A stretch of 64,000 bases of DNA from UHGV virus genome UHGV-1558314. One strand, given 5' to 3'. Of this stretch, positions 4,447-59,682 are shown piece by piece. The notes beneath the pieces were generated by a model. That model saw only the letters and a list, made by a program, of their open reading frames with translations, did not search any database and had not been told where the DNA came from. Within the stretch, counting starts at the first letter, position 1. Each line of letters starts with the position of its first letter. The position numbers were made by a program, and so were the translations under genes. Source of the DNA: a virus.

Positions 4447-4755
4447 TTATAATGAGTCAGACACTACAGATGCATATTGCAAGACCTGTTTGCGAATATC
4501 ACTGCCAATCAGTCGTTCATATTGCAGACGCAGTTCTGTAACTGTCATATTATCTGGCAGCTCTTTGACTTTGATAAAGATGCCTGCAGTGTCGCCTTTA
4601 GCAATGTAGCCGCTTTTCTCGCACATGTTACGCAAACAGTCAATATATGAATGTCGCTCAGATTTGACTGCGCATAGCATTTGCTGTCTGCTAAATGACT
4701 CGCCTACTGCAATGCCTGCAATGAACTGCTTAAACGCATACCAACGTGTCATCAC
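4447..4755 (-). CDS. hypothetical protein
   Basis: ORF in minus-strand gene array; no recognisable motif. Confidence 0.4.
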   Translation of the reverse strand: MMTRWYAFKQFIAGIAVGESFSRQQMLCAVKSERHSYIDCLRNMCEKSGYIAKGDTAGIFIKVKELPDNMTVTELRLQYERLIGSDIRKQVLQYASVVSDSL

Positions 4756-5207
4756 AGATTTGATTTGTATGTTTCACAACGTTTCCAATCTGTTGCAGCT
4801 TTAAGACCCTTCAAGTATTCTACATACATTGGATGTTCCCATGCAGGGTCATCAGTTACAGCAACATAACCTTTGCTGTGCTTATCTTTGTCAATAAGCA
4901 TCTCTGCATATTTTGGCGCAAGCAGTCGTTTGTTTGCAGCCCAAGCAAAATGACATTTGATAAAGTGTCGCGTAATTCTTGTGTATGCCGCTTTGACAGA
5001 CTTTAGCATATCAAGGTCTGCAATAACATCTGCCAAATTCTGTGGCGCTGCTGCAATGAAAACTGCTTCACAATCTTTGTGCTTTGCAGCAATTTGCTGC
5101 AGCAAATCTTCATGCGAATTAAGATGCAGAATTGTTGAACAGATGACTACAATGTCTGTTGCAGGTTCTATTCGCTTTGCTTGTTCTTTAAGAGATGGTT
5201 GTTCCAT
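4752..5207 (-). CDS. hypothetical protein
   Basis: ORF tightly packed with neighbours; no recognisable motif. Confidence 0.4.
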   Translation of the reverse strand: MEQPSLKEQAKRIEPATDIVVICSTILHLNSHEDLLQQIAAKHKDCEAVFIAAAPQNLADVIADLDMLKSVKAAYTRITRHFIKCHFAWAANKRLLAPKYAEMLIDKDKHSKGYVAVTDDPAWEHPMYVEYLKGLKAATDWKRCETYKSNL

Positions 5208-5213
5208 GTTGTG

Positions 5214-5483
5214 TCAGATTTTGATATGTCGTAGCAAAATTTTATGCAAATTCAACAATGATTGCGCTGCATATGCTGTATTTGGTTGAAGCTCTTTGCA
5301 GTTGTCGCATTTCAATGACTGCTCAGTTATTTGAGCATCTGTGTCAATGTTAATTGCAGTTTGGCAAACTACACATTGCCATTTAAGCGTATGTGTATGC
5401 AAGTTGTCTACGAACAATGTAGAGCCAAACTTATCTTGCCAGTCTTCTGCGCATTTTGGATGAAACATTGTCAATGAGCCCAA
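5214..5483 (-). CDS. hypothetical zinc-ribbon protein
   Basis: Cys pairs CxxC ... CxxC. Confidence 0.35.
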   Translation of the reverse strand: MGSLTMFHPKCAEDWQDKFGSTLFVDNLHTHTLKWQCVVCQTAINIDTDAQITEQSLKCDNCKELQPNTAYAAQSLLNLHKILLRHIKI

Positions 5484-25496: not shown

Positions 25497-25592
25497 ATCA
25501 ATTGCATTCTATATCAATTGCATTCTATATCAATTGCATTCTATATCAATTGCATTCTATATCAATTGCATTCTATATCAATTGTATCTTGT
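25497..25592. repeat. 16-bp tandem repeat array (5 perfect plus degenerate copies)
   Basis: atcaattgcattctat repeated head to tail; unit contains the palindrome caattg. Confidence 0.85.
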
Positions 25593-25820
25593 ATCAAATA
25601 CATTATATTGATATATGATAATTGTACTACAAAAATCCCAAATTTGCACACTTTGATAATCAAAAGTGCAAACAAAATTCAAAGTTATATTGTACATCAT
25701 AAAGTGCAAATTTGCACTTTATGATGCTAAAATGCCACAATTTATAACTCTGCAAAATGTCTGCATAAAATAAGCAGCTTAGATTGCTAAGCTGCTGTCA
25801 TTGTATGCATGCAGTCACTG

Positions 25821-26759: not shown

Positions 26760-26830
26760 GCAATACGACAGGACTCGAACCTGCGACCTCGGATTGGACG
26801 TCCGCGCTCTTACCGCTGAGCTACGTATTC
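26760..26830 (-). tRNA. tRNA-like, possibly Gly(TCC); non-canonical anticodon arm
   Basis: Canonical D-arm TAGCTCAGCGGTAAGAGC and T-arm GCAGG-TTCGAGT-CCTGT, but the anticodon stem pairs poorly (loop CGTCCAA) and there is a G-G at 1:72. May be a degenerate tRNA. Confidence 0.4.
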
Positions 26831-26920
26831 TTATCAATTGACTGCACTGCAATGCAATCAATCGCGCCAATGACACCTGACGCATAATTGCAGTTATGCG
26901 TAACAATTCAAATGTCATTG

Positions 26921-26993
26921 AGCCAACTGCAGGAATCGAACCTGTAACCTGCTGATTACAAATCAGCTGCTCTGCCAATTGAGCTAAGTTGGC
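26921..26993 (-). tRNA. tRNA-Thr (anticodon TGT)
   Basis: Folded by hand: acceptor GCCAACT/AGTTGGC, D-arm GCTC-AATTGGCA-GAGC, anticodon stem GCTGA/TCAGC with loop TTTGTAA, T-loop TTCGATT. Confidence 0.8.
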
Positions 26994-27075
26994 ATAAAGT
27001 CGTTGGGCCATTGCAACCCAAACCTATCATCTTTGCATAGCCAAAGATGCAAGCGCTCTCTTACACCACGACTTG

Positions 27076-27147
27076 TAGCCGAACTTGGAGTCGAACCAAG
27101 CTTTCGAGAATGAAAATCTCGCGTCCTAACCGATAGACGAAACGGCC
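27076..27147 (-). tRNA. tRNA-Glu (anticodon TTC)
   Basis: D-arm TTCGTCTATCGGTTAGGAC resembles bacterial tRNA-Glu; anticodon stem CGAGA/TCTCG with loop TTTTCAT; T-arm CTTGG-TTCGACT-CCAAG; two T-T mismatches at the base of the acceptor stem. Confidence 0.6.
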
Positions 27148-27330
27148 AAGAGCAGTTCAAGTCTGCAGCATTGAACTGCGGAAGCAATGCCTGTACGGGC
27201 AACCAATTGTGCAGATACAGCGACATTGCAAAATCACACCGAACCAAGTTTGTGGCTCTTCTGTCTCATAAAAACAGTAATCATTACACTTGGCACCAAT
27301 GATTCTGATGTAAAAATCGGTGTGTTATGC

Positions 27331-27413
27331 GGAAAGCGGAGGTGTCGATCCCCATACGCGAACGTACTCACGGTTTTCAAGACCGGATTTGCAGCCGTGC
27401 AAATTCACTTTCC
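27331..27413 (-). tRNA. tRNA-Ser-like (anticodon TGA), long variable arm, atypical D-arm and T-loop
   Basis: Acceptor GGAAAGT/GCTTTCC; anticodon arm CCGGTCTTGAAAACCG identical to E. coli tRNA-Ser(UGA); variable-arm hairpin GTACG-TTCG-CGTAT; T-loop ATCGACA. Confidence 0.45.
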
Positions 27414-27608
27414 ATAAAACATTGCATAAGCATTCTTATCTCTTGATGAGACCAAGTAGCTAATTTGGCAAGTTTGTTATATCTATCGTGACTGTTGCAG
27501 TTTATTTGTCACTCAATACACAAAATTTTCGAACATTCATTGACAGCACTGCAATATCGCTTTTTTAAGCTCAGCCATCAATGTATTTATGCAATGTATA
27601 ACAATTCG

Positions 27609-27690
27609 TAGCCAAACCGGGACTTGAACCCAGACTCCTAATGGAACAACATTTTGAGTGTTGCGTGTCTACCAATTCCACCATTTGGCC
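27609..27690 (-). tRNA. tRNA-Leu (anticodon CAA)
   Basis: Acceptor GGCCAAA/TTTGGCT, D-arm GTG-GAATTGGTAGA-CAC typical of tRNA-Leu, anticodon stem CAACA/TGTTG with loop CTCAAAA, long variable arm, T-loop TTCAAGT. Confidence 0.8.
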
Positions 27691-27794
27691 ATTTGCAAAT
27701 GCAAGCTGTTTCATAACTGTTTGCATTTGCTGTCGTAAATTTGTATTGTTTAGCCTCTAAAACATGATTCAACTAATCAAAAACCAGAGAATTG

Positions 27795-27867
27795 TCGAGA
27801 ATGTGCGATTTGAACGCCAATTATACGTCCCAAACGTATCGTGTTACCGGATTACACTACATTCTCG
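27795..27867 (-). tRNA. tRNA-Pro (anticodon TGG)
   Basis: Perfect anticodon stem ATACG/CGTAT with loop TTTGGGA; D-loop AATCCGGTAA; T-loop TTCAAAT; ends uncertain by 1 nt. Confidence 0.65.
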
Positions 27868-27874
27868 TTAATTG

Positions 27875-27946
27875 TTGAACCGTCTGGACTCGAACCAGAA
27901 ATGGCTGAACCAAAATCAGCTGTGTTACCGATTACACCACGATTCA
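27875..27946 (-). tRNA. tRNA-Gln (anticodon TTG)
   Basis: Acceptor TGAATCG/CGGTTCA (one G-T), D-arm GTGT-AATCGGTA-ACAC, anticodon stem GCTGA/TCAGC with loop TTTTGGT, T-arm TCTGG-TTCGAGT-CCAGA. Confidence 0.75.
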
Positions 27947-34568: not shown

Positions 34569-35111
34569 AATATTGTTGTTTTGCTATATGAGACTTGTTA
34601 TGACTTCAAGCACATGTTCTTTTGAATAGCACTTATCAAACTTATGCTTGAAGTCAATTAGTGACTCAAGCTTTGTTAAGTACCATTGATTGTCATACTT
34701 GAACCAGACTCGAGCATTTGCCGAACATATTGCATGCATTGCAGCATTCTGGTCTTCTTCAGGATTACGTCACTTAGACCCAAAGTAATATTGCAATGTA
34801 ATGCCACATTTATGAATTTCGTGCAATTTCATTTTTATGCTTACTAAAATGTTAACTGTAATGACTTGATATTGACGCATTCAATTTTTAACATGACAAG
34901 CTTATCATGTGCAGCCATTGCGTCATATTTGATGTTTGCAATTTCAAGCTTCTGTGCAATTTTGTATGCAGAGACGCCATCAGTAGATATGCAGATACAG
35001 TTGCCAATGACTACATTTGCTGCATCTGTTATGTTAACTTTGCATGCATTATCATTGTTATCAATGACTTCTATGCATTTGATTGAGCTAAAGTCCATAT
35101 TGCGAATGCTT

Positions 35112-35342
35112 TTATTGTGCTGATTTTGCTACATTTGCATATACCATGCCATGACAGCATGGGCATGTCCAATATGCTTCGGGTTCTTCATATGCAGGAC
35201 CTGGTATAGGATTGCCAAGCGTCATGTGTAAATCAGAAGCTTCGATTTCTATAATAGAATTGCACATATAGCAGACCTTTCTGCCAAGTCGTTTATCTAT
35301 TTGTTGCGTAGGTGCTTTGTAGTTGTTTTCAATGATTTTCAT
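35112..35342 (-). CDS. hypothetical zinc-finger protein
   Basis: CYMC ... CPCC Cys pairs. Confidence 0.35.
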   Translation of the reverse strand: MKIIENNYKAPTQQIDKRLGRKVCYMCNSIIEIEASDLHMTLGNPIPGPAYEEPEAYWTCPCCHGMVYANVAKSAQ

Positions 35343-35574
35343 AGATGTAGAGGTTTAGTATATTTGATAGTATATTATTTATAGATATATAATACTACAC
35401 ACTTGCAGATTTTGCACTTAGTTGATAAATAATTTGTAAACATTTTCACAAACTTTTAACAGCTCTTTCGCTTATGAAAACTACTCAACTCTGGTTTGAA
35501 CGCCAGCAGTCAATCGCGGGTGGGCTCTTCGTGCTCCTATCACTACTATTGATGTCAGACTGTATGACTATGAT

Positions 35575-36225
35575 ATGCCGACAAAGGCATACACGACTGG
35601 GACTCATAGCATCGTAGTATACTATGATGGCGGAATTGTTGCAAATGGCAACACACAAAATGGGCGTTGGTACTCATCTCGACTTCAGCTTCAGCAATCA
35701 AAGGGCGCAGTTATCACTATAGCATTGCAAGATGCAAGCATTAGCGGCGTTGGTTGTGCTACTGTGTCATTTTACGCAGATGATGCAAAGATACAAAATG
35801 GCACTATGCATGTCAAACTATATTGTCGTACACAATATGAGTTTGTATGGCCACAAGCATACATGACTCAGTATGTGAATGATTTAATGTATGCTGTTTA
35901 TGTAGAGCCAAGTGACGTAAGATTTAATACAAGAGCTTTTGTCAATTGTTGCGGTTGTGGTCAAGCATTGACTGACAACTTTAATGGAGAACTCTGGGAT
36001 AATGGCTATTCAATTGAAGACACTGACATTATGCAAGCTGACGCAGACGAATGGTGGCCAATGATTAGTAATGCCTATGCAGAATTTCCATACACTGTCA
36101 TAGCATCAAACATTCCGGAAGAGTCTATGGCATCTGGACTTGCAGCTTTTCTGCAAAGTGCTGGTGTTGGCAGTGTTTTCTATGTACAAGCATTGCAGCT
36201 TGGTGAACTTGTAAGTTCATTTTAG
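35575..36225 (+). CDS. hypothetical protein (isolated plus-strand gene)
   Basis: 216-aa ORF on the opposite strand to all neighbours, followed directly by a strong bidirectional terminator. Confidence 0.5.
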   Translation: MPTKAYTTGTHSIVVYYDGGIVANGNTQNGRWYSSRLQLQQSKGAVITIALQDASISGVGCATVSFYADDAKIQNGTMHVKLYCRTQYEFVWPQAYMTQYVNDLMYAVYVEPSDVRFNTRAFVNCCGCGQALTDNFNGELWDNGYSIEDTDIMQADADEWWPMISNAYAEFPYTVIASNIPEESMASGLAAFLQSAGVGSVFYVQALQLGELVSSF

Positions 36226-36242
36226 ACTGTAGCATGATACAA

Positions 36243-36287
36243 AAAGAAAGCCGAACTGAATTTCAGTTCGGCTTTCTTTTTTGCATA
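36243..36287. terminator. bidirectional rho-independent terminator
   Basis: About 15-bp perfect stem agaaagccgaactgaa / ttcagttcggctttct flanked by A-run and T-run between convergent genes. Confidence 0.65.
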
Positions 36288-36300
36288 CGCTTATGCTATG

Positions 36301-39300
36301 TTAGAACAGAGCAATGATGTTGTCAACAAACATAAAGCACTTTTGCAGCAATTCAGCTGTCGGCGTCATCTCATATGCTTTGCCATCATACATAAATCGC
36401 ACAGTGACAATGGGTGACACTTCGTCTTTGAATGCAAGCACAGGAACATCTACACCTGCAGTCAATTGCACTTCAACATCCTTGTCAGCTGCTACATCTT
36501 TAGCAATCACTGCAATATCTTGACAACGACCAGCAGCTACTGCATATCTAACGTTTGTCAATGTAGCAGACATGTCAGCAAGAGCTTGCATGATTTGCTG
36601 TTGAGTAAATTGCTCAACCGACTTCTTTGCAGCCTTGACAGCTTCGATATCTTGCGTATTTGCAAGAATCAATGCTACCACTGCAGGGTCAGAAGTAGTC
36701 CACCAACGACCATCAATTGCAAGCCACAGTCGATTGCCATTGACGTCAATTGCATATGCATATTGAGTGTTTGGCGCCAATGTGACTTTTCGAGTGTTCT
36801 TTAAGAACTCTGCTGCATCAGGTGCTGCAACAATGTTCTTGACAAATGACGGCAGCATTTCAGCTTCAAATGTTTGTGTAGCTTCAAAGACACCGCCACG
36901 TGCATCGTCATCAATTCTGCCTGCAAAGCGTTTGCAGATTTGAATGATTGTAGCCATGCCTACTGTTGGAACGACTTGACGTTTCATTGCAGGCATTTGC
37001 AGAGGCATTGTATCTTGCGCAATGTACAATGATGTCGCATCAACAGTGTCAAGTACTCGTGCAATGTCTGCAGTATCAACAATTACAAACCAGTCGCCAT
37101 CATGGCAGACAATGAGTTGCTTGCTGTCATTTGCATATGTCAGCAATACTGCAATGTCATTTTTGATTGAGATTGCAGGAATCCATGCTTGTTGCAGAGG
37201 TAAGTCAAGATTTGGTGTGCCGCATGGATAAAGCGCAGATGGCTGCATAATTGAGCGGCAATCAAAACCTATTGAACTTACAAGCTGCAGAACTTCGCCA
37301 CGAATGCAAGCATTACTTTGATTCTGTGTCATGTCATATGCAAGCCAACTGCAAATTGCTTTGATTGATGACACTGGAAATGCTACGCCAATTGTGCTGT
37401 ATGCAATCTTGCCGTCTGCTGACAATGACTCATCAACTGCAATGCCAGCATCATTGAACAATGACATATCAATTGAACAATGGAATTCGCCACCAGGCAT
37501 TGGACCTGCAGCAATGCCATAGCCATGACCAAGTGACAGCCATTCTTTCATTGCATCTGAATTGTATGACGAGAACTTGTACAGCACATATGACTTATGC
37601 GGGTCACTAACTGACTTGCGAATCTCCATCTTGGCGCCTGCTTTCTTTGCAATTGCTTTAATGTTATCGGCATGCTTTTTTGCCTCAGACTTGTCAAATT
37701 TGCCTTCATCAAGTTGAGCAATCTTGCCAAGCGCATAAGCAGTCCATGCAATTAACAATTGATTCAGTGCACCAACTTCTGACCACGACTTTTCTGCAAA
37801 CCATGAGCCAAGACCAGATTTGTCAAGGGTTTCTTTGCGTTCAGCTTTTGTTGTGCTGTCCCACCACTTGCCAGTCGCAGGCAATACAATGTCTTTGATT
37901 TGCTCCTTACGAAGCTCATTGACACCAATTTTGCCCTCATGAACATGCGCATTTGCATGATATGCTCTAAGAGCAGCCAACGCAGCATCATATGAGTCAT
38001 AGTCTTGCGGCCAGAATTCCCCATTCTTGCCAATGATGCCCCATACACCCTTTGACTTTTCTTGGATGACAGAGTCTTTGTCACCGGCAGCTTCATTGAC
38101 AAATGCCGTGTTAAGATATGCAATGACATGCTGAAGCTCTTTGTCGTCTGCAGACTCATTGACGTTCTTAGCGTAATCACCAAGAATTGATTCAACTTTG
38201 CCACGCAAATTGCTTGGCATATCATCAAGGTCAAGATTGCCGTACTTCGTAACTTCTGGTTGAGACAATCCAAGCAATTTCAACACCTTATCGCGGTACT
38301 TATTTGCAAGCTTCTTCCAAATCCAGCGGAATGTTACAGCGCCAATCAAGAATTTGATGAGGCCCTCATCAAGTACATGTTGTTCACGCAAATATGCTGT
38401 AATGCATGAACGTTGACCATCAGTCAAGTCAACCCACATTTTATCAAGCAATATTGAATCTGGGTTGCTTGCAATGCCAGCGCCGCTGCGGTTGTACACA
38501 TTCATTCTGTCAATTGCTGGTGTTGCGTCATTGTCCCACCAAGCTTGTGCATATGAACATCCAGCAGGATTTGAGATTGCTTCATTAATGTACATGACAT
38601 TGAAGATTTCGCAAAGACGCTTGCGACATTCAGGTGACATAACTTGCCATTGTGTTGCAATTTTGTCTTCTGACCACTGCAACAGCATGTCTGCAAATTC
38701 TTTACCTGCGCATTGCTCAACTGCACCATGTTTCGAACGCCAATAATTGTCAGGCTCAATTTGTGCAATTGCATGAACAAATGAAGTCAGATTGTATGAC
38801 GCAGATTCGCAAATGCAATGCTGTTCAATGTAGCTACGAACAGCAAGTGCAGTGTCTTCCGGCAAGTTGCTATATGGTGACTCATAGATGTTTGCTTGCT
38901 GATTGAGCATATGTGGAGCAACTTCTGCAATGATTTGTTTGCGAACATTCAATGGCCATGCATTCCATGAAGATTCTACAGATTCATCAAGATGCATGCC
39001 AATTGCATCCATAACTGCATCAGCATCTTTGCCCGACAGTTCGTCAAACAATTTGTCTACTACTGCATAATCATATCGCAAATTTGGCTGAGCCTTTGCA
39101 AGAGCGTCCATCATTGCTTTGCGTTCTTGTTTTGACGCATTATTCCATGTGCCAGCATACAATTCTGCTGTCGCGCTTTCACAGACAATATCTGCAGCAG
39201 CATATGCTTGCTTCATAATGTCCATGAAGATTGACTTCATTTTTGGATGCATCACATGATACTTTTCATTGTAGATGTCAAGTACGCCATAAACATCTTT

Positions 39301-39507
39301 CAATGGTCGAATGCTTTCTGATGAGCCGAATGATGGCTTCAAAATTGAATTGCATACACGTTCAACGGTGCCACGCATAAACTTGACATCACTTCGCTTG
39401 TCACTGATAGACATAAATGCATCAATGACAGACTTGATGTTGTCATCTGCAGCTTCATTGACAAAGCCTACTGGTCGACCGCCAAACTTGTTTGTTTGTG
39501 TTGTCAT
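36301..39507 (-). CDS. large hypothetical protein (1068 aa)
   Basis: Long uninterrupted ORF; no recognisable catalytic motif by eye. Confidence 0.55.
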   Translation of the reverse strand: MTTQTNKFGGRPVGFVNEAADDNIKSVIDAFMSISDKRSDVKFMRGTVERVCNSILKPSFGSSESIRPLKDVYGVLDIYNEKYHVMHPKMKSIFMDIMKQAYAAADIVCESATAELYAGTWNNASKQERKAMMDALAKAQPNLRYDYAVVDKLFDELSGKDADAVMDAIGMHLDESVESSWNAWPLNVRKQIIAEVAPHMLNQQANIYESPYSNLPEDTALAVRSYIEQHCICESASYNLTSFVHAIAQIEPDNYWRSKHGAVEQCAGKEFADMLLQWSEDKIATQWQVMSPECRKRLCEIFNVMYINEAISNPAGCSYAQAWWDNDATPAIDRMNVYNRSGAGIASNPDSILLDKMWVDLTDGQRSCITAYLREQHVLDEGLIKFLIGAVTFRWIWKKLANKYRDKVLKLLGLSQPEVTKYGNLDLDDMPSNLRGKVESILGDYAKNVNESADDKELQHVIAYLNTAFVNEAAGDKDSVIQEKSKGVWGIIGKNGEFWPQDYDSYDAALAALRAYHANAHVHEGKIGVNELRKEQIKDIVLPATGKWWDSTTKAERKETLDKSGLGSWFAEKSWSEVGALNQLLIAWTAYALGKIAQLDEGKFDKSEAKKHADNIKAIAKKAGAKMEIRKSVSDPHKSYVLYKFSSYNSDAMKEWLSLGHGYGIAAGPMPGGEFHCSIDMSLFNDAGIAVDESLSADGKIAYSTIGVAFPVSSIKAICSWLAYDMTQNQSNACIRGEVLQLVSSIGFDCRSIMQPSALYPCGTPNLDLPLQQAWIPAISIKNDIAVLLTYANDSKQLIVCHDGDWFVIVDTADIARVLDTVDATSLYIAQDTMPLQMPAMKRQVVPTVGMATIIQICKRFAGRIDDDARGGVFEATQTFEAEMLPSFVKNIVAAPDAAEFLKNTRKVTLAPNTQYAYAIDVNGNRLWLAIDGRWWTTSDPAVVALILANTQDIEAVKAAKKSVEQFTQQQIMQALADMSATLTNVRYAVAAGRCQDIAVIAKDVAADKDVEVQLTAGVDVPVLAFKDEVSPIVTVRFMYDGKAYEMTPTAELLQKCFMFVDNIIALF

Positions 39508-39619: not shown

Positions 39620-42600
39620 TCAATTGCATGCTGAATGTCCGCAGTTGGTGCATCGAACACAGCCGTCAAACTTGACCATGTCACCACCGCATTCAGGGCA
39701 CTTTGCATACATTTTTGAGCCATCTTGAATATGCAGTTTCAATGCACGACCAATTGCTTTGCAGAATGTTCCGACAGATGCAAAGCTTTTTGCAGTTTGG
39801 TCGACAATTTCGCCAAGGTCAATACCATTGCGAAGCATCGTTGAGTATAGTCGAGTAATTGTTTGTTGCTCATCTGAACCAAGACGTTCTGATATATTGT
39901 CATAGTGCTGCAAGAATGACAAATTGTCACCAAGCTTGTAGTGCTTCTTATCAGTCTTTGTGATTGTCGTTTGTTCAATGCCTTGCAACTTGTCGAATTC
40001 ATCTTTGTCAAGTTCAAATGCAAAGATTTCATAAGGTCGACCGTCATCACAGCCTACAAGAATACACCACTTGCGCTTATACACTGACACGCAATACACT
40101 GCAGCAGGCAATACTGGTTTTCGTTTTGAGCGATGACCAGATTGCAAGATGTGCGACTTGTCTTTTGACTGCTTGTCATCTTTTACGAGAACACCTGCAC
40201 GTGAGCCGTCTCGATAAATTGTGCAGCCCTTGCAGCCAGATTTCCATGCAGTCATATAAATTTCACGAACGAGTTCTTTTGTTGCAGAGTTTGGAATGTT
40301 GACCGTTACAGAAATTGACGAGTCAATGTATTTTTGCAATGCACCTTGCAGTTTCACCTTGCCAATCCAGTCAACATCTTCAGTAGTTGCCTTGTAGTAT
40401 GGTGATTGAACAAGCAACTCATCAATGACTGCTTGTGGAGCATTTGATAGCCAAGCTTTGATACGAGACATTTCTGCTTCTGACCATTCAATGCCAGTAT
40501 CTTTGACAAGAGTAAATTTGCCATCGCCAAGCTGCAATCGTTTACAAATCCACTGCATCAATGGGTAGTGAACTACAGCATATTCAATGAACTTGTCACC
40601 AGTAGTCTCATCAATGAAGTTGATGTCAGCTTCATTATCAACTGCAGTAGGCTTGCGACGACGTTTATGCAGCGGCATAAAGACAGGTTCAATGCCAGAC
40701 GTTGTCTGAGTCATCAAAGCTGTAGTGCCTGTTGGCGCAATTGTGGTCGTGTTAATGTTTCGACGGCCAAATTGCTGATAAGTTTTGATATGCTCATCAT
40801 CAATCGGTTCAGATAGCATACGCTGTACGAACTTTGACTGCACATCTGTGTCATAGTCGAATATTGCAAATGCGCCACGAATCTTTGCTAAGTCAATCGA
40901 TGCTTCATAAGTAGCCTTTACAAGCCATTGTTGCATAGTGACTGCGAAGTCAATTGACTCTTGTGAACCATAGCGCAAGCCAAGCATTGCCATTGCATCG
41001 CCAAGTGCAAGGAAGCCCATGCCATATCTACGAGTATTTGTCAATTTGTCATAGACTTTGTGCCACAAGTCAAGTTCAGTCTTTTTGATGTCAAAGTCTT
41101 CTTTGTCTGACTGTACCTTTGCAATGATTCGTTGCACTGCTTCAATTTCAAGCTGTACAAGGTCATCCATGATGACTGCACAATCATACGTGTCTTTATA
41201 GAATGTCTCAAAGTCAAATGACGCATCAGCAGTCCAAGGATTAAGCACGTATGCAGTCAAATTGCGATGTGACAAAATGCAGCTTGCATATGCTGCAAGA
41301 GGTTGTTCACCACAATTTAATGTATTGACTACTTGCTTGTCATTGACTGCAATAAAGAAATTGTGGAAGTCTTCTACTGTACCATTGTACACATCTGCTT
41401 TGTTCATGTGACGTGTTGCAACGACTTTGACAATTGTATCACCAGTAGTGTCAATGTCTGCATATTTGCTGCAGCCACCTAATGCTGCACAAGCTTCACA
41501 GCAATATGACTGTTCACGATTGTCATAAGAGATTTCGAATTCTTTACCACAGCACTCGCATTGTTTGATAACTGTATTTCGTTCTGTTTTTACAAGCTCA
41601 TCAGTCTTCAATGCAATTGATAGCTTATCTGCGCTTGGCATATCAATTGCCCACAACGTGTCATTTGTCGCAAGGTCAATTGCATACTTGAAATCACCAT
41701 TAGCAAGTCTGAACTCATGATTTGCTGTGCAATTGATGACATGACCATCATCAAGCACAATCTGAATGATTTGTGCATTGTGTGCAGTCAATCTTGGTCG
41801 ACGCATTGTACGCACAACAAGCTTGCCATTAGCGTCAAGACAATACACTGGAATGTCTTCGCCGTTATCAGCAAGCTCTTTGAATGTCTTCAAGCCTGAG
41901 CCATCAGCAACAAGCACTTTTGTGTCACCAGTGAAGCATGGATTTGTTGAGCGCTCTTCATACATTTTGCCGTATGCTTTCGAGTTCGACTCTTCCATAA
42001 TGCGGTCCCAAAAGAATACACCAGGTTCTGCAGATGCCCATACATTATCAACAATTTTGTCAAACAATGCTTTTGCATCTGATGTCTTATGCAGCTCTTG
42101 ACCATTAGAGCCACGCCAAACATGCTCAAACTGTTGTTCTGCAAGCACTGCACGCATAAATGCATCAGTAAGCTTGATGGAAATGTTTGCGCATGTGATT
42201 TTCGTCAAGTCCTTTTTTGCATCAATGAACTTATCTGCATCAGGATGCTCAATTGACAATGACAACATCAATGCGCCACGCCTGCCATTTTGTGCAACTT
42301 CTTTTGTCGATGTTGAAAAACGTTCCATAAATGACACTACACCAGACGTCGTAACAGCACTGTTATGCACTTCTACGCCTTCTGGACGAATATGTGACAA
42401 ATCATGGCCGACACCACCACGACGTTTCATCAACTGAACTTGTTCTTCATCTATTTTGAAGATGCCGCCATATGAGTCTGCATCATTGCCTATTACATAG
42501 CAATTTGACATTGATGTGTAACCGCCAAGACCAATACCAGCCATTGGAGAACCACCAAGTACAAATCGCTTAAATGGCTCAAGCAAATATGCAAGTCGCT

Positions 42601-42841
42601 CTTTTGACAATACACGTTTGCCTGTCTGTTCTTCAAATTGTGATTCTATACGGTCAAATTCATTGACCCAGCGTTCATGCATATCAGACAATGAGTGTTC
42701 ATACAGATTGTCTTTGTCATGATGCAAGTATTTTGACATGCATATGTCAGCAGCCATTGAGTCGCCTGTAAATTCATGTGTCAGTGTAGTGTGCACTTCA
42801 GCATATTCAGGCGACCCAATTTGAATAGGACGTTTTGTCAT
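39620..42841 (-). CDS. ribonucleotide reductase catalytic subunit (probably class II NrdJ-like), intein-containing
   Basis: Active-site NPCGE is split (…ERSTNP | intein | CGEQPL…); C-terminal zinc ribbon CPECGG...CVRCTNCGH; start taken at MTKRP (ATG at 42841). Confidence 0.8.
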   Translation of the reverse strand: MTKRPIQIGSPEYAEVHTTLTHEFTGDSMAADICMSKYLHHDKDNLYEHSLSDMHERWVNEFDRIESQFEEQTGKRVLSKERLAYLLEPFKRFVLGGSPMAGIGLGGYTSMSNCYVIGNDADSYGGIFKIDEEQVQLMKRRGGVGHDLSHIRPEGVEVHNSAVTTSGVVSFMERFSTSTKEVAQNGRRGALMLSLSIEHPDADKFIDAKKDLTKITCANISIKLTDAFMRAVLAEQQFEHVWRGSNGQELHKTSDAKALFDKIVDNVWASAEPGVFFWDRIMEESNSKAYGKMYEERSTNPCFTGDTKVLVADGSGLKTFKELADNGEDIPVYCLDANGKLVVRTMRRPRLTAHNAQIIQIVLDDGHVINCTANHEFRLANGDFKYAIDLATNDTLWAIDMPSADKLSIALKTDELVKTERNTVIKQCECCGKEFEISYDNREQSYCCEACAALGGCSKYADIDTTGDTIVKVVATRHMNKADVYNGTVEDFHNFFIAVNDKQVVNTLNCGEQPLAAYASCILSHRNLTAYVLNPWTADASFDFETFYKDTYDCAVIMDDLVQLEIEAVQRIIAKVQSDKEDFDIKKTELDLWHKVYDKLTNTRRYGMGFLALGDAMAMLGLRYGSQESIDFAVTMQQWLVKATYEASIDLAKIRGAFAIFDYDTDVQSKFVQRMLSEPIDDEHIKTYQQFGRRNINTTTIAPTGTTALMTQTTSGIEPVFMPLHKRRRKPTAVDNEADINFIDETTGDKFIEYAVVHYPLMQWICKRLQLGDGKFTLVKDTGIEWSEAEMSRIKAWLSNAPQAVIDELLVQSPYYKATTEDVDWIGKVKLQGALQKYIDSSISVTVNIPNSATKELVREIYMTAWKSGCKGCTIYRDGSRAGVLVKDDKQSKDKSHILQSGHRSKRKPVLPAAVYCVSVYKRKWCILVGCDDGRPYEIFAFELDKDEFDKLQGIEQTTITKTDKKHYKLGDNLSFLQHYDNISERLGSDEQQTITRLYSTMLRNGIDLGEIVDQTAKSFASVGTFCKAIGRALKLHIQDGSKMYAKCPECGGDMVKFDGCVRCTNCGHSACN
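41315..41938 (-). mobile_element. mini-intein (208 aa) inside the ribonucleotide reductase gene
   Basis: Begins CFTGDTKVLV (block A), contains NCTANHEF (block B) and VYNGTVEDFHNFF (block G-like), ends ...VVNTLN followed by extein Cys; precise excision restores NPCGE. No LAGLIDADG or HNH domain; carries a Cys-rich insert CECCGKEF...CCEACAALGGC. Confidence 0.75.
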
Positions 42842-42908
42842 TGTAACAGTGCATTTAAGTGTTTTAACAGTTTTATGTATAAATTGTACAACAATGGGCA
42901 AAATTTTG

Positions 42909-55474: not shown

Positions 55475-56494
55475 CTATTGCTTATGCCAGCCATATGATG
55501 CCTGACCAGCATCATACACTTCTACAAAACCATGGTCGTACATAAAATCTTCATTACGAGTGCCCTTGCCCCCATTAGTACCAAGAATACGGTCTGCACC
55601 ATGCATAAGCAGCATATTATTTGTGATATGTTGCTTTGTCAGCATATTGAACCAATGTTTGCTATATGACAAGCCAAGACCATCAAAGCCCAGCTTTGTG
55701 TACACGCCACCATCAAACTTGCTCAAATCACAATACGACAACACAGATTCAGGGTCATATGTCTTGATAAAGTGCTTGAATATGCGTTCGGCGCCACCTA
55801 CGACTTTTGTTGCTGCACAAAGACGCAGTAGTTCATACTGATATCGCTTATTGTATCGTGGACGACCAAATGTCATAAGCTGATGTATGACATAGCCGCC
55901 AAGCAATTCAAGTGGATGGCCTTCAATCAACGCAAGATTGATAAAATTGCCTGAGCACTTGCCTTGCAAATGATGTTCAATCAAAAATTGATTTGCAGTA
56001 TACTTGTCAATTTCAACAACTTTAAGCTTGCGAGCATATACAATCTTTGATTTGTCTACGATTTGATGCTTGATGTGATTGATAACTTTCTTGGCGTCAT
56101 CCCAATCCCACACATGAATGCAATGAAAGCCTGCAGCTTTTGCAATGTCTGTTTTCTTTGCATGAATATCACAAGGCAAATGCGAATCTTTTGCAGCATG
56201 CATAAATAGATGCTCAAATGAATGCGTGCTATTATGTGAAAATGTGGGATTGATGTTGATGACGATGTTGTCATGTCTAAAATCGAAGACTTCATCACCA
56301 ATAACAAAGTTGCGCTCAAAATCTATACCGACATGTTTGAGTAATACTTGATGCCACACATCTTTATAGGCTGATTCAAGATTGCTTAGCTCATCACAGT
56401 TTGCAATATTTTTGTAACGTTGAATAGCAGCATCAAAGTCAAGATTGACTTCAGCGTAGTCTGCATTTTTATCGTAGTGAAATTTTGAGCTCAT
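55475..56494 (-). CDS. paralog family member C (conserved domain without the repeat array, extra inserted region)
   Basis: NINPTFSHNST, CIHVWDWDD, FVEVYDAGQ; FLIEHHLQG region between them; start taken at MSSKFHYD (ATG at 56494). Confidence 0.55.
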   Translation of the reverse strand: MSSKFHYDKNADYAEVNLDFDAAIQRYKNIANCDELSNLESAYKDVWHQVLLKHVGIDFERNFVIGDEVFDFRHDNIVININPTFSHNSTHSFEHLFMHAAKDSHLPCDIHAKKTDIAKAAGFHCIHVWDWDDAKKVINHIKHQIVDKSKIVYARKLKVVEIDKYTANQFLIEHHLQGKCSGNFINLALIEGHPLELLGGYVIHQLMTFGRPRYNKRYQYELLRLCAATKVVGGAERIFKHFIKTYDPESVLSYCDLSKFDGGVYTKLGFDGLGLSYSKHWFNMLTKQHITNNMLLMHGADRILGTNGGKGTRNEDFMYDHGFVEVYDAGQASYGWHKQ

Positions 56495-56598
56495 GTGTAT
56501 AATTTGTATGAGATTATTGTACAACATGCAAATGCATGTTGCATTTGATGCAAAGTACTGCGTACACAACATAAAGTACAAGTTTGCTTTTGACAGAC

Positions 56599-57966: not shown

Positions 57967-59682
57967 TCAAATCCAGCCGTAGTCGCTGTGGATAGCGAAG
58001 GTGAGGTAAGCCAACTCGGGATACATACCCGTCTCCGCGAGAGCGTAATCCGACTCAATCAGCAACTTTGGCGCTGCTGTTCCTTCGGCTGTTAATTCCA
58101 CACTTGATGCAAGGTCATATGGCATGAATACACATCCCTGGTTGACATTCTCTACGTCAACACCGTCAGCAGTCTTGTTCGTACGAAGAACGAGAACAGT
58201 GTTGTCGTTCAGCGGCTGCTTAGGATTGCAATAGATTTTAATGCCAGCAAGGTCACCTGCGTAATACAGGTTTTTGTTGTCCTGTACCAGCGTATTGTCA
58301 AGAGCTGCAACAAAGTTTTTCTGAGCCTTAATTGCAACCAAGGCAATCGTATTGACCACAGCAGCATCACCAGCACCGAAACGCGACAGGTTGCCAATGA
58401 TTGCCGAAGCAGCCAGGATACGCGTTGCGATACGAGCCTGACGGGTAATCTGGTTCTCAGCCGAGCTGTTCGATTCAGCGTTCGGAACCATGCCGAATTC
58501 AGCCGTACGGTCTACACCCATCTTGTCGACAAATGCAGGAGCTTGGAATTCCGAGAATGCCTTGGCAGTCGAACCAGCGTAGCCAATGTACAAGTTCAGG
58601 TTGTAGCCCTGAGCAGCCAACAGCTGAGCATGTGTCGTAACACCAAGTGCACGCATGCGCTTCAGACCATTGTCATTGATTGACTGCGTGATTTCATTCT
58701 GCATTGCATTCTTGATGATTGCAACTGCATCCAAACCGCGAGCACGGAGGTCCTTAACCTGGCGACGAGTCAGAGCGCCCCAAGTCTGGTACGTCTTAAC
58801 TTCGATAGCCTTTGAGAAGGTGCGGAGCTCCAGCATGTTCGGGTTGCCAGCCTCAGCCTCAGAACGAGACATTGGGTTGCCGTCAAGGTCATCCATTGCA
58901 GCGAAGCCGTGGATGTGTTCGTCACCAGCCGAAACCAGGTCGAACATAACCTCAGTCATACCAGTCAGCAAGTCAGTTACAGCACCTGCAGCGTCAACCG
59001 AGTAGATTTTCGATGCAGCCATTGCAACATCAGCCAACGACTTGTCAGGAGCAACAGTCATTGCGCCACCTGCGCCTACAGTGTACACGCCCTCATTGCG
59101 AACTACGAGGTAGCCTGCAACACGCGATACCTGTACAAACGTTACTTTGGCAGCAAGCTCACCAGCAGCTGAACCGCCGATGTACAGAACTTGACCCTTC
59201 TTGAGGCCACGAACCATTGTCTGCGAAGCAACATTGTACAGTTCCTTCCACTTGATGAGGAAGTAGCGAGGACCCTTGGCAACATTCAGCTTGCCGCCAC
59301 CATACACGTAGTCTACATAGTCCAGCTGAACCAGCGGGCTGTAAACAGGAATGGTCGGGAGCAGGTCGAACAGAATCGTGTTGGCTGCGATGTTCATGTT
59401 CAGAGCCAGAACATTGGCAGCTACATCGATTGAACCACGCTTACGCGACGGGTCATGGAACTGTGCTTGCGTGCCTGGGTCAGCAGGGAAAGCGACCGGA
59501 CCTACGCCATTGAGATTCTGCGAATACGTCGACTCAAACGACTCGTTCATATACTGAACGTTCTGAGCGATTGATGCGAGCAGATACTTCTTAGCGGGCG
59601 AGAGCTTGGAGTCAAACGACTCATCAAGAACAGGGCCCCACTTTTTCAGCAATGCATCAATCTGTGTACGTTTTGCGTTCAT
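57967..59682 (-). CDS. major capsid protein (T4 gp23-like)
   Basis: Several segments resemble T4 gp23 as recalled from memory (DALLKKWGPVLDES vs ELLNKWKPLLEGEG; ...IPVYSPLVQLDYVDYVYG; FSKAIEVKTYQ...AVAIIKNAMQNEI); nucleotide composition visibly more GC-rich than neighbours, consistent with a highly expressed gene. Confidence 0.8.
   Translation of the reverse strand: MNAKRTQIDALLKKWGPVLDESFDSKLSPAKKYLLASIAQNVQYMNESFESTYSQNLNGVGPVAFPADPGTQAQFHDPSRKRGSIDVAANVLALNMNIAANTILFDLLPTIPVYSPLVQLDYVDYVYGGGKLNVAKGPRYFLIKWKELYNVASQTMVRGLKKGQVLYIGGSAAGELAAKVTFVQVSRVAGYLVVRNEGVYTVGAGGAMTVAPDKSLADVAMAASKIYSVDAAGAVTDLLTGMTEVMFDLVSAGDEHIHGFAAMDDLDGNPMSRSEAEAGNPNMLELRTFSKAIEVKTYQTWGALTRRQVKDLRARGLDAVAIIKNAMQNEITQSINDNGLKRMRALGVTTHAQLLAAQGYNLNLYIGYAGSTAKAFSEFQAPAFVDKMGVDRTAEFGMVPNAESNSSAENQITRQARIATRILAASAIIGNLSRFGAGDAAVVNTIALVAIKAQKNFVAALDNTLVQDNKNLYYAGDLAGIKIYCNPKQPLNDNTVLVLRTNKTADGVDVENVNQGCVFMPYDLASSVELTAEGTAAPKLLIESDYALAETGMYPELAYLTFAIHSDYGWI

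What the first reader, a model, noticed from the sequence alone, without database searches (positions are those of the whole stretch)
35575..36287. Isolated plus-strand gene with its own terminator inside the minus-strand array
The 216-aa ORF at 35575..36225 is transcribed against the direction of all surrounding genes and ends at a strong bidirectional terminator. This is the classic moron layout. The product has a Cys cluster (NCCGCGQ) but no recognisable fold by eye.
Basis: inference. Interest (0 to 1): 0.45.

Follow-up and report, generated by a model that had tools for sequence, protein, structure and literature searches.

The report
Swappable leader-tagged phage gene module
The lone plus-strand gene is real, but it is one interchangeable "cartridge" of a repeated phage module in which a constant promoter, a constant 17-codon leader and a short run of G's are joined to unrelated, fast-evolving proteins, and the length of the G run decides which start codon is in frame.

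Summary
A 216-aa ORF lies at 35575..36225 (+), alone among minus-strand genes. It ends at a 19-bp perfect hairpin flanked by A and T runs. "Classic moron" is only partly right.

The ORF is one of at least five unrelated bodies of about 215-240 aa. Each body follows the same invariant 68-nt segment (window 35466-35533): ATG 35474, 16 codons (MKTTQLWFERQQSIAGG), a G tract, then GCT CTT CGT. Each has its own hairpin terminator. One related 174.6-kb genome carries three such modules.

At the window's locus, near-identical relatives carry the same body, an unrelated body, or no module at all. Over 31 copies the G tract is 6G-class (5), 7G-class (23) or 8G (3). With 8G the leader ATG is in frame (259-, 256- and 233-aa products). 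With 6G a TTG is in frame. With 7G neither is.

The window copy reads GGGTGGG (7-class, interrupted), so ATG 35575 is probably an internal Met.

The body is an ORFan with patchy excess of amino-acid changes. The Cys cluster is not conserved, and the CorA-like Pfam hit is below threshold.

Best reading: a frame-gated, recombination-shuffled host-interaction gene family in a ~175-kb gut phage, probably of Bacteroidota. This is a new variant of known kinds (poly-G contingency loci, T4 PeSL modules, T4 capsid-targeting leaders).

The parts
35364..35393 (+). Sigma-70-like promoter match (TTGATA-18-TATAAT, 11 of 12)
   Evidence: This is a consensus match only and not enriched over shuffles. It lies in the divergent intergenic region.
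35385..35465 (+). Locus-A-type promoter and 5' leader. It holds a TTTGCAC box and an ATAAATAAT (-10-like) element. It is near-identical in window, L001, L002 and L003, and about 75% identical to the version at the other loci.
   Evidence: Alignments. Function as a promoter is inferred.
35466..35533 (+). Invariant 68-nt core shared by all modules: TTTCGCTT-ATG-(16 codons)-G tract-CTCTTCGTG
   Evidence: Identical apart from three SNPs and G-tract length in 31 copies joined to five unrelated bodies. One copy in the window.
35474..35617 (+). Leader ATG frame, MKTTQLWFERQQSIAGG... In the window it runs out of frame into a 47-codon ORF that ends at TAG 35615-35617.
   Evidence: The same ATG is fused in frame to the body where the tract is 8G (P0019 259 aa, L018, L028).
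35496..35498 (+). TTG that is in frame with the body in 6G-class copies (MNASSQSRGALR...)
   Evidence: (P0004, P0009, P0018, P0022).
35518..35524 (+). G tract, GGGTGGG in the window (7-nt class, interrupted by T)
   Evidence: Elsewhere it is 6G, 7G, 8G, GGCGGGGGGG or GGGGGGTGG.
35500..36225 (+). Full open frame of the type-1 body. The junction codon GCT is at 35524. Codons 35524-35574 (ALRAPITTIDVRLYDYD) are probably coding.
   Evidence: (the Pfam alignment reaches into this stretch).
35575..36225 (+). The ORF as reported (216 aa, ATG start)
   Evidence: The exact protein is on record as P0020.
35899..36108 (+). Hypervariable patches of the body (junction-numbered aa 126-195, including NCCGCGQ)
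   Evidence: 23 columns with amino-acid changes against 3 synonymous-only among four alleles, interleaved with invariant blocks.
36241..36282 (.). Bidirectional hairpin terminator shared with the convergent 1068-aa gene
   Evidence: Conserved in L001 and L003.
36301..39507 (-). Convergent 1068-aa gene of unknown function (right flank of the locus)
   Evidence: 98% identical in relatives that differ at the cassette.
35104..35345 (-). 76-aa ORF (35112..35342, phrog_2834) inserted next to the leader in this lineage only

Best explanation
SHOWN.
- The ORF is one allele (body type 1) of a repeated, self-contained expression module in ~175-181-kb phages from human-gut metagenomes.
- Each module has its own upstream promoter-like region. 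Then comes an invariant 68-nt segment holding an ATG and 16 codons (MKTTQLWFERQQSIAGG), a short G tract, and GCT CTT CGT (ALR). Then a body of about 215-240 codons and a strong hairpin terminator.
- The bodies fall into at least five types, mostly unrelated in sequence.
- One related genome holds three modules. The same body occurs at different loci and different bodies at the same locus. Homology breaks exactly at the end of the invariant segment.
- G-tract length sets the frame. With 8G the leader ATG is in frame, with 6G a TTG is in frame, with 7G (the majority) neither is.
- The window's copy is GGGTGGG, so it is in the 7-class.

INFERRED.
(a) Bodies are exchanged by homologous recombination. 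One crossover falls in the invariant leader and the other in the terminator or flank.
(b) The G tract acts as a frame gate. It works as a slippage-prone contingency tract, and possibly through -1 slippage on G_GGG_GGG, which would give the same protein as 8G. It couples or uncouples the constant 20-residue N-terminal tag and the body.
(c) The bodies are host-interaction proteins under arms-race selection.
(d) The constant tag sends them to a common destination, most plausibly the virion, as the capsid-targeting sequence does for T4 internal proteins.
(e) In the window the tract is interrupted and out of frame. This copy is therefore made from the internal ATG 35575 without the tag, or at a low level by slippage.
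For: Architecture and shuffling:
- Window and L003 are about 95% identical through the leader up to ...CTCTTCGTGCTCCT (193 nt compared). They are unalignable across the whole body and match again (95.6% over 45 nt) from the terminator.
- Three core copies lie in one 174.6-kb contig.
- L005 and L006 share the upstream context (92-96% identical) but carry type 3 and type 4 bodies. L007 and L009 carry type 4 in a third context.
- Locus A is occupied by type 1, by type 2, or holds no module.

Bodies are real genes:
- pN/pS is 0.12-0.17 for type 4 and 0.23 for type 3.
- Type 1 keeps an intact ORF, has an in-frame 6-nt indel, and shows invariant blocks beside hypervariable patches: 46 columns with amino-acid changes against 10 synonymous-only.

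Coding starts upstream of the first internal ATG:
- In type 4, 6 of 7 substitutions in the 25 codons before the first ATG are synonymous third-position changes.
- Types 1-3 share I-[DY]-V-R with the Arg encoded by AGA, CGG and CGT.
- The Pfam alignment extends into this stretch.

Frame gating:
- Tally of 31 copies: 6G-class 5, 7G-class 23, 8G 3.
- 8G gives MKTTQLWFERQQSIAGGALR... fused to types 2, 3 and 4.
- L017 (6G) and L010-16 (7G) encode the identical protein.
- L001 has ACG to ATG, which creates a start in the 7G frame.

Same design elsewhere in these phages:
- A second leader, ATGCAAATCCCTCGTAACT(G)9-12..., sits on two different bodies. It is in frame at 9G and 12G and out of frame at 10G and 11G, among otherwise near-identical contigs.

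Precedents:
- Poly-G phase variation in Campylobacter phages (Sorensen 2021, cited in PMC12823448) and phage contingency loci (PMC12633550).
- PeSL-mediated shuffling (PMC2839356, PMC4122927).
- The T4 capsid-targeting sequence on diverse internal proteins (PMC3012670, PMC9026906).
Against: - There are no expression, read-level or proteomic data.
- The ATG-in-frame state is rare (3 of 31) and was never seen for type 1. The G tract is short (6-8), and no sample I examined showed more than one tract length at the same locus, although most samples contributed only one contig per locus. The length differences could therefore be ordinary fixed indels in a 5' UTR.
- Types 1, 2 and 3 have canonical starts 7-18 codons after the junction.
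- The leader shows no significant RNA structure (z -0.1 to -1.9) and no conserved downstream stimulator for frameshifting.
- The leader peptide has no detectable relative. It resembles the T4 sequence only as MKT-Q-aromatic.
- Function is unknown. There is no Pfam, PHROG, NCBIfam or PDB match above threshold. AF2 models are of low confidence (pLDDT 30 and 48).
- Locus A lies among replication genes, not structural ones.
Confidence: 0.6

Rival explanations
1. Classic moron. A single foreign gene with its own promoter and terminator was dropped between two phage genes. It serves the host or lysogen and is unrelated to anything else in the genome.
For: Opposite orientation, own terminator and promoter-like sequence. 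Presence, absence and replacement among close relatives. No homologues outside this phage group.
Against: The 5' region is a repeated element of the phage itself, present at three loci in one related genome and joined in frame to at least five bodies. GC is not deviant. Nothing in the window indicates a temperate phage. The core was not found in 185,579 bacterial and archaeal species genomes.
Confidence: 0.08
2. The leader is only a shared promoter and 5' UTR kept by recombination. The G-tract differences are neutral indels. Each body is translated from its own first canonical start, which in the window is ATG 35575 as reported.
For: ATG 35575 is conserved in all type-1 alleles, and GATATG also aligns in type 2. 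Types 2 and 3 have GTG within 10 codons of the junction. 7G-class copies dominate yet the bodies are under purifying selection.
Against: All five body types keep the frame open from the junction. In type 4 the 25 codons before the first ATG evolve as coding sequence (6 of 7 changes synonymous). A UTR would not need 68 nt to stay identical across paralogous loci while the promoter part is only about 75% identical. 8G copies give clean ATG fusions at three loci. L001 gained an ATG in the 7G frame.
Confidence: 0.2
3. Programmed recoding rather than DNA-level phase variation. In the common 7G state, ribosomes starting at the leader ATG slip -1 on G_GGG_GGG, or RNA polymerase adds a G. A fixed fraction of full-length tagged protein results, plus a short leader peptide.
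For: In the ATG frame the heptamer is phased exactly as X_XXY_YYZ (GCG GGG GGG). A -1 slip yields the same sequence as the 8G allele. This would explain purifying selection on bodies that sit in the 7G state and the nucleotide-level invariance of the leader.
Against: 6G-class copies would need +1, not -1. There is no conserved downstream hairpin or pseudoknot, because the sequence after CTCTTCGTG differs by body. The leader fold is not significant. G-rich heptamers are not typical bacterial slippery sites (general knowledge). The window's GGGTGGG weakens re-pairing.
Confidence: 0.2
4. The window's copy is a decaying pseudogene, an out-of-frame relic of a once-tagged gene.
For: pN/pS is 0.64-1.25 among type-1 alleles. 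The tract is interrupted and out of frame with the leader ATG. The commonest lineage lacks the module altogether.
Against: The ORF is intact in all five type-1 DNA loci (window, L001, L002, L019, L021) and in the cluster member P0021, despite up to 18% amino-acid divergence, and the only indel is in frame. Changes cluster in patches between perfectly conserved blocks, with few synonymous changes. That is the pattern of diversifying selection, not uniform decay.
Confidence: 0.07
5. A metal-binding protein: a CorA/MopE-like copper(I) binder, or a Cys-cluster metal site at NCCGCGQ.
For: Pfam PF18252 Cu_bind_CorA, E = 1.6e-5, 25.1 bits over aa 8-153 of the junction-numbered protein.
Against: The score is below the curated cut-off of 27 bits. 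The Cys cluster varies (NCCGCGQ, NFCGCGQ, DVCGSGQ) and lies in the hypervariable patch. PDB profile search gives nothing. The hit most likely reflects a generic beta-sandwich.
Confidence: 0.03

Closest known systems
Hypermutable poly-G tracts and contingency loci in phages (Campylobacter Fletchervirus receptor-binding genes, Sorensen et al. 2021, cited in PMC12823448; T2/T4 contingency loci, PMC12633550)
   Same: A homopolymeric G tract sits near the 5' end of a variable, host-interaction-type gene. Tract length differs among near-identical genomes and decides whether the start codon is in frame.
   Different: The tract is short (6-8). It sits at the seam between a constant leader peptide and interchangeable bodies. 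All three frames have a distinct consequence (ATG, TTG, none). The window's copy is interrupted by T. Within-population switching is not shown.
PeSL (promoter-early stem-loop) cassettes of T4-type phages (PMC2839356, PMC4122927)
   Same: Repeated regulatory sequence upstream of ORFans. Promoter-ORF-terminator units. Replacement, insertion and deletion between close relatives, with homology breaking at the repeated element.
   Different: PeSLs are about 50 copies per genome of a short sigma-70 promoter plus stem-loop that ends at the start codon. Here there are few copies. The repeat is about 110 nt with a 68-nt invariant part that extends 20 codons into the ORF. The stem-loop terminators are not part of the repeat and differ between loci.
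T4 capsid-targeting sequence on internal proteins IPI, IPII and IPIII (PMC3012670, PMC9026906; sequences read)
   Same: A constant short N-terminal peptide sits on otherwise unrelated, rapidly diversifying accessory proteins encoded at polymorphic loci. Both peptides begin MKT-Q-aromatic (MKTYQEFIAE against MKTTQLWFER).
   Different: There is no detectable homology. No (L/I)xE cleavage motif is present (WFE here). The bodies are about 220 aa and not notably basic. Packaging is untested. The tag is in frame in only 3 of 31 copies.
Morons of lambdoid and other temperate phages
   Same: An autonomous promoter-gene-terminator unit, oppositely oriented and variably present.
   Different: It is not a singleton insert. 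It is a family built on the phage's own repeated leader. There is no compositional deviation and no evidence of lysogeny.

Membership tests
Moron (autonomous accessory transcription unit) | Gene flanked by its own promoter and factor-independent terminator | tested here: inconclusive
   The terminator hairpin is strong. The promoter is only a consensus-like match, not enriched over shuffles. The conserved -10-like element in the leader is inferred.
Moron (autonomous accessory transcription unit) | Present in some phages and absent from otherwise collinear relatives | tested here: met
   Present in L001, L020 and L021. Replaced in L003 and L028. Absent in L023-27 and L031.
Moron (autonomous accessory transcription unit) | Independent foreign origin (atypical composition, unrelated to the rest of the genome) | tested here: not met
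   GC is 0.415 against 0.405. The leader is repeated at three loci of one related genome.
Moron (autonomous accessory transcription unit) | Carried by a temperate phage and expressed from the prophage | not testable with these tools
   No lysogeny genes were seen among the ORFs scanned. The core is absent from the species genomes scanned. There are no expression data.
Phage poly-G contingency locus | Homopolymeric G tract inside or next to the 5' coding region | tested here: met
   6-8 G after codon 16 of the leader in the family. In the window the tract is GGGTGGG, i.e. interrupted.
Phage poly-G contingency locus | Tract length differs among otherwise near-identical genomes and switches the reading frame | tested here: met
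   L017 (6G) against L010-16 (7G) with the identical body. L018 and L028 have 8G with the ATG in frame. Leader 2 has 9-12 G.
Phage poly-G contingency locus | High-frequency reversible switching within one population | not testable with these tools
   Only assembled consensus sequences are available.
T4-type PeSL | Composite repeat of a sigma-70 early promoter plus a stem-loop, many copies per genome, ending at the start codon | tested here: not met
   Three copies were found in the one relative surveyed genome-wide (174.6 kb), and one in the 64-kb window. The stem-loops are not part of the repeat. The repeat runs 20 codons into the ORF.
T4-type PeSL | Homology breakpoints of replacements coincide with the repeat | tested here: met
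T4 capsid-targeting-sequence internal proteins | Shared N-terminal propeptide on diverse proteins | tested here: inconclusive
   Shared 20 residues appear when the tract is 8G. The peptide is out of frame in 28 of 31 copies.
T4 capsid-targeting-sequence internal proteins | Sequence relationship to MKTYQEFIAE and an (L/I)xE protease site | tested here: not met
   Only M, K, T and Q are identical. There is no L/I-x-E. tblastn of the peptide against phages finds nothing.
T4 capsid-targeting-sequence internal proteins | Packaged in the head and ejected | not testable with these tools
   Needs virion proteomics.
Pfam PF18252 Cu_bind_CorA | Score at or above the gathering threshold (27 bits) | tested here: not met
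   24.1 and 25.1 bits.
Diversity-generating retroelement target | A template repeat matching the variable region, and a nearby reverse transcriptase | tested here: not met
   blastn of a locus that contains the type-1 gene (L001) against the window gives no second copy of the variable region. No RT appeared among the ORFs scanned. Not every ORF was scanned.

The most novel reading that the evidence does not exclude
These gut phages run a "tag-and-swap" system. A constant N-terminal targeting peptide is fused to an exchangeable repertoire of effector or adhesin bodies held at several loci. Each fusion is gated independently by a slippery G tract (DNA phase variation, recoding, or both). A clonal phage population would then display or inject different combinations of host-interaction proteins. 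That would be a viral counterpart of bacterial contingency loci combined with polymorphic-toxin-style cassette exchange.
Probability: 0.3. Interest if true: 0.8.

Novelty: new variant of a known kind. Interest (0 to 1): 0.6.

Why it matters
Large phages of gut Bacteroidota are almost entirely uncultured, and most of their genes are ORFans. This locus gives a sequence rule for finding their fastest-evolving host-interaction genes: an invariant 68-nt leader followed by a G tract. It also shows how such genes are exchanged, through recombination in a shared leader.

It suggests that phages outside Campylobacter and the T-evens use homopolymer tracts to gate expression. If the constant peptide is a targeting signal, it could be used to load foreign proteins into these phages, as the T4 capsid-targeting sequence is.

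The work also corrects the annotation. Gene callers give 216, 217, 233, 236, 241, 242, 251, 256 or 259 aa for what are only a few genes, depending on tract length.

Tried and rejected
Searches that found nothing useful:
- megablast and tblastn of the gene, and tblastn of its 1068-aa neighbour, against GenBank phages: no match.
- Word-indexed search of 5.8 billion proteins and exhaustive HMMER over 1.84 billion representatives: only the gene's own cluster.
- Pfam, PHROGs and NCBIfam on all body types: only the sub-threshold CorA-like hit.
- PDB profile search: noise.
- Exact core pattern in 185,579 species genomes: none.

Structure:
- AlphaFold2 on type 1 (3 sequences) gave pLDDT 30. On type 4 (6 sequences) it gave pLDDT 48.
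- Foldseek on the type 4 model gave only weak generic Ig-like hits (E > 0.004, TM < 0.25), treated as uninformative.
- hhalign of type 1 against types 4 and 5: no relationship. BLASTP of type 1 against type 2: none.

RNA-element ideas for the leader:
- Rfam gave nothing but terminator-hairpin noise.
- Fold z-scores were -0.1 to -1.9.
- The leader is too invariant to test covariation.

Other ideas rejected:
- Leader repeated inside the window, PeSL-like: only one copy. An nhmmer run returned no output.
- The TTTGCAC...AAT motif as a recurrent promoter: not enriched.
- Leader peptide as a recognisable capsid-targeting sequence: tblastn found none and no other ORF shares it.
- Alternative genetic code to extend the frame upstream: it gives no start codon, and the long neighbouring ORFs read cleanly in code 11.
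- Lipoprotein-like signal peptide in the ATG frame: not conserved across body types, and explained by T-rich third positions read in the +1 frame.

Full report
**1. The observation**

The ORF listing gives a 216-aa ATG ORF at 35575..36225 on the plus strand. From 3928 to 63909 every other non-overlapping ORF of at least 120 aa is on the minus strand.

Fifteen bases after the stop lies AAAAAGAAAGCCGAACTGA-ATT-TCAGTTCGGCTTTCTTTTTT (36241-36282). It forms a 19-bp perfect stem. Folding energy is -35.6 kcal/mol against -12.0 +/- 2.7 for shuffles, z = -8.9. An A run and a T run flank it. The stop of the convergent 1068-aa gene is at 36301. The simple terminator scan missed the hairpin.

**2. The setting**

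The window carries these genes:
- NAD ligase, an exonuclease, both topoisomerase II subunits
- an intein-containing ribonucleotide reductase and a dNMP kinase
- six tRNAs
- at its far end an MCP-like gene, a protease-like gene and a tail sheath

Genes have no Shine-Dalgarno sequences; their upstream regions are A/C-rich. The best phage matches of the topoisomerase are Chryseobacterium jumbo phages (38% aa) and Prevotella Lak phages. A neighbour of a sister module has a BACON domain at 38 bits, above the cut-off of 25. Related contigs are 174.6-181 kb and come from human-gut metagenomes. I infer a large myovirus of gut Bacteroidota. Nothing seen indicates lysogeny.

**3. The protein**

It is an ORFan.
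- There is no match in GenBank phages.
- Two clusters were found among 5.8 billion proteins.
- Exhaustive HMMER over 1.84 billion representatives found nothing else credible.
- The only family signal is Pfam Cu_bind_CorA at 24-25 bits, below the 27-bit cut-off. It probably reflects a beta-sandwich.
- AlphaFold2 failed, with pLDDT 30.
- The Cys cluster is not conserved: NCCGCGQ, NFCGCGQ, DVCGSGQ.

**4. What the relatives show**

(a) L001 is about 96% identical to the window over 16 kb and has the gene in the same place.

(b) The IMG/VR contig IMGVR_UViG_3300045988_152288 is 93-95% identical in both flanks. It has an unrelated 239-codon ORF in the same slot and orientation. DNA identity runs through the upstream region as far as ...GGGCTCTTCGTGCTCCT. 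It vanishes across the whole body and returns at the terminator.

(c) Scanning metagenomes and IMG/VR with the last conserved 28 nt found more copies. These include two further copies in that same IMG/VR contig.

(d) In total there are at least five body types, each 216-242 codons from the junction and each followed by its own strong hairpin.

| Type | Where seen |
|---|---|
| 1 | window, L001, L002, L019-21 |
| 2 | L003, L028 |
| 3 | L005, L008, L018 |
| 4 | L006, L007, L009-18, L034 |
| 5 | L010-17 |

(e) L005 and L006 share their upstream genes (92-96% nt) but carry types 3 and 4. L007 and L009 carry type 4 in a third context. Bodies therefore move between loci.

(f) A survey of locus A through variants of the 1068-aa neighbour shows three states. 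They are type 1, type 2, and, in the commonest lineage (a protein seen on 43 contigs), no module but a co-oriented Cys-rich 142-aa gene.

**5. The constant part**

Across all copies 68 nt (window 35466-35533) are invariant apart from three SNPs and the G tract. The sequence is TTTCGCTT ATG AAA ACT ACT CAA CTC TGG TTT GAA CGC CAG CAG TCA ATC GCG (G)n CTCTTCGTG. The promoter-like part upstream is only about 75% identical between locus types. Rfam finds nothing there. Its fold is not significantly stable.

**6. Where coding starts**

In every body type the long ORF is open back through the junction (GCT CTT CGT = ALR).
- In type 4, seven substitutions fall in the 25 codons between the junction and the first ATG. 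Six are synonymous third-position changes. My own binomial estimate for that split is about 0.007 if changes fell on codon positions at random.
- Types 1-3 share I-[DY]-V-R upstream of their first ATG, with the Arg encoded by AGA, CGG and CGT.
- The CorA-like Pfam alignment improves and extends into this stretch.

Translation therefore starts at or before the junction. ATG 35575 is probably an internal Met.

**7. The G tract**

The tally over 31 copies:

| Class | Copies | Tract forms |
|---|---|---|
| 6G-class | 5 | 6G ×4, GGGGGGTGG ×1 |
| 7G-class | 23 | 7G ×13, GGCGGGGGGG ×7, GGGTGGG ×3 (including the window) |
| 8G | 3 | 8G |

- With 8G the leader ATG (window 35474) is in frame. The product is MKTTQLWFERQQSIAGG-ALR-body. 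It is seen for type 4 (P0019, 259 aa), type 3 (233 aa) and type 2 (256 aa).
- With 6G the TTG at 35496 is in frame (MNASSQSRGALR...; P0004, P0009, P0018, P0022).
- With 7G neither is. L001 has in addition an ACG to ATG change that creates a start in that frame.
- L017 (6G) and L010-16 (7G) encode the identical protein.
- A -1 slip on GCG GGG GGG would give exactly the 8G protein.

A second, unrelated leader in the same phages is ATGCAAATCCCTCGTAACT(G)9-12CACAACAAGCCCTCCAA. It has two different bodies. It is in frame at 9G and 12G and out of frame at 10G and 11G among otherwise near-identical contigs. Gene callers accordingly report many different lengths for the same genes.

**8. Selection**

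Types 3 and 4 are under purifying selection, with pN/pS 0.12-0.23.

Type 1, the window's gene, has pN/pS 0.64-1.25. But the ORF is intact in all five type-1 DNA loci (window, L001, L002, L019, L021) and in the cluster member P0021, and its only indel is in frame. Its 46 columns with amino-acid changes (against 10 synonymous-only) cluster in patches, notably 35899-36108 (23 against 3). These patches lie between perfectly conserved blocks. I read this as diversifying selection on a functional protein, not decay.

**9. Interpretation**

Shown:
- a repeated promoter-leader-G tract-body-terminator module
- body exchange with breakpoints at the leader
- frame control by tract length

Inferred:
- recombination in the leader as the exchange mechanism
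- the tract as a contingency or recoding gate
- a host-interaction role for the bodies
- a common destination, perhaps the virion, specified by the 20-residue tag

I checked the T4 analogy on T4's own sequence. IPII and IPIII begin MKTYQEFIAE and IPI begins MKTFKEFTST. The resemblance to MKTTQLWFER is weak. No other ORF shares the peptide.

In the window the tract is GGGTGGG, which is out of frame with the ATG and interrupted. This copy is either made untagged from ATG 35575 or made at a low level by slippage.

**10. Comparison with known systems**

- Poly-G phase variation in phages is known (Sorensen 2021, cited in PMC12823448; PMC12633550).
- ORFan shuffling through repeated promoter/terminator motifs is known (PeSLs; PMC2839356, PMC4122927).
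- Diverse proteins sharing a capsid-targeting leader are known (PMC3012670, PMC9026906).

This locus combines features of all three and belongs strictly to none of them; the membership table gives the detail. It is a new variant of known kinds, in an uncultured gut phage lineage.

**11. Limits**

There are no expression, read-level or proteomic data. The function is unknown. Both structure predictions are of low confidence. 8G is rare and was not seen for type 1. The neutral-UTR reading is not excluded.

Noticed in passing
window 35104-35345: A 76-aa minus-strand ORF (35112..35342, phrog_2834, unknown function) is an insertion next to the leader. It is absent from L001 and L003 and present in L021 and L022. 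The divergent intergenic region is itself an indel hotspot.
   Followed up: partly
window 25500-25800: A complex intergenic region. It has a perfect palindrome CATCATAAAGTGCAAA/TTTGCACTTTATGATG and six tandem copies of ATAGAATGCAATTGAT. The TTTGCAC half-site recurs upstream of the module promoters. It may be an operator or origin-like region.
   Followed up: partly
L009 905-1260; L010-L017 about 4675-5440 (minus); L018; L034: A second leader family, ATGCAAATCCCTCGTAACT(G)9-12CACAACAAGCCCTCCAA, is joined to two different bodies. The ATG is in frame at 9G and 12G only. The tract differs among near-identical contigs.
   Followed up: yes
L010 5557, L017 2714, L018 5554, L034 7288: Another poly-G tract of 8-10, about 200 nt from the second leader on the other strand, also varies in length between contigs.
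   Followed up: no
L010 3722-4470 (minus) and the same region in L011-L017: The type-5 body is split into 90-aa and 164-aa ORFs by a frameshift in all seven contigs. The 164-aa part is 31% identical to the C-terminal half of type 4 (motif CLPWI[YH]E). Bodies are therefore partly modular.
   Followed up: partly
L023 5846-6274 (locus A of the commonest lineage): Where the window has the module, this lineage has a co-oriented Cys-rich 142-aa ORF with its own hairpin and TATAAT-like box. It has no Pfam or PHROG match.
   Followed up: partly
window 39620-42901; L028 1-2387: The ribonucleotide reductase large subunit carries an intein. In one lineage the gene product is 1328 aa with an HNH_3 domain, instead of the 1073 aa called in L001 and L023. 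Intein content therefore varies.
   Followed up: no
window 55475-56581: An HNH/homing-endonuclease-like gene lies two genes from the MCP-like gene (57967..59682).
   Followed up: no
window 26760-27946: A cluster of six tRNA genes (Gly, Thr, Glu, Leu, Pro, Gln) on the minus strand.
   Followed up: no
L018 3239-3853 and the same gene in L010-L016 and L034: The gene just upstream of the type-4 module encodes a 204-aa BACON-domain protein. It follows a 1442-aa ORF and a 199-aa ORF. This hints that that module sits among virion-surface genes.
   Followed up: partly
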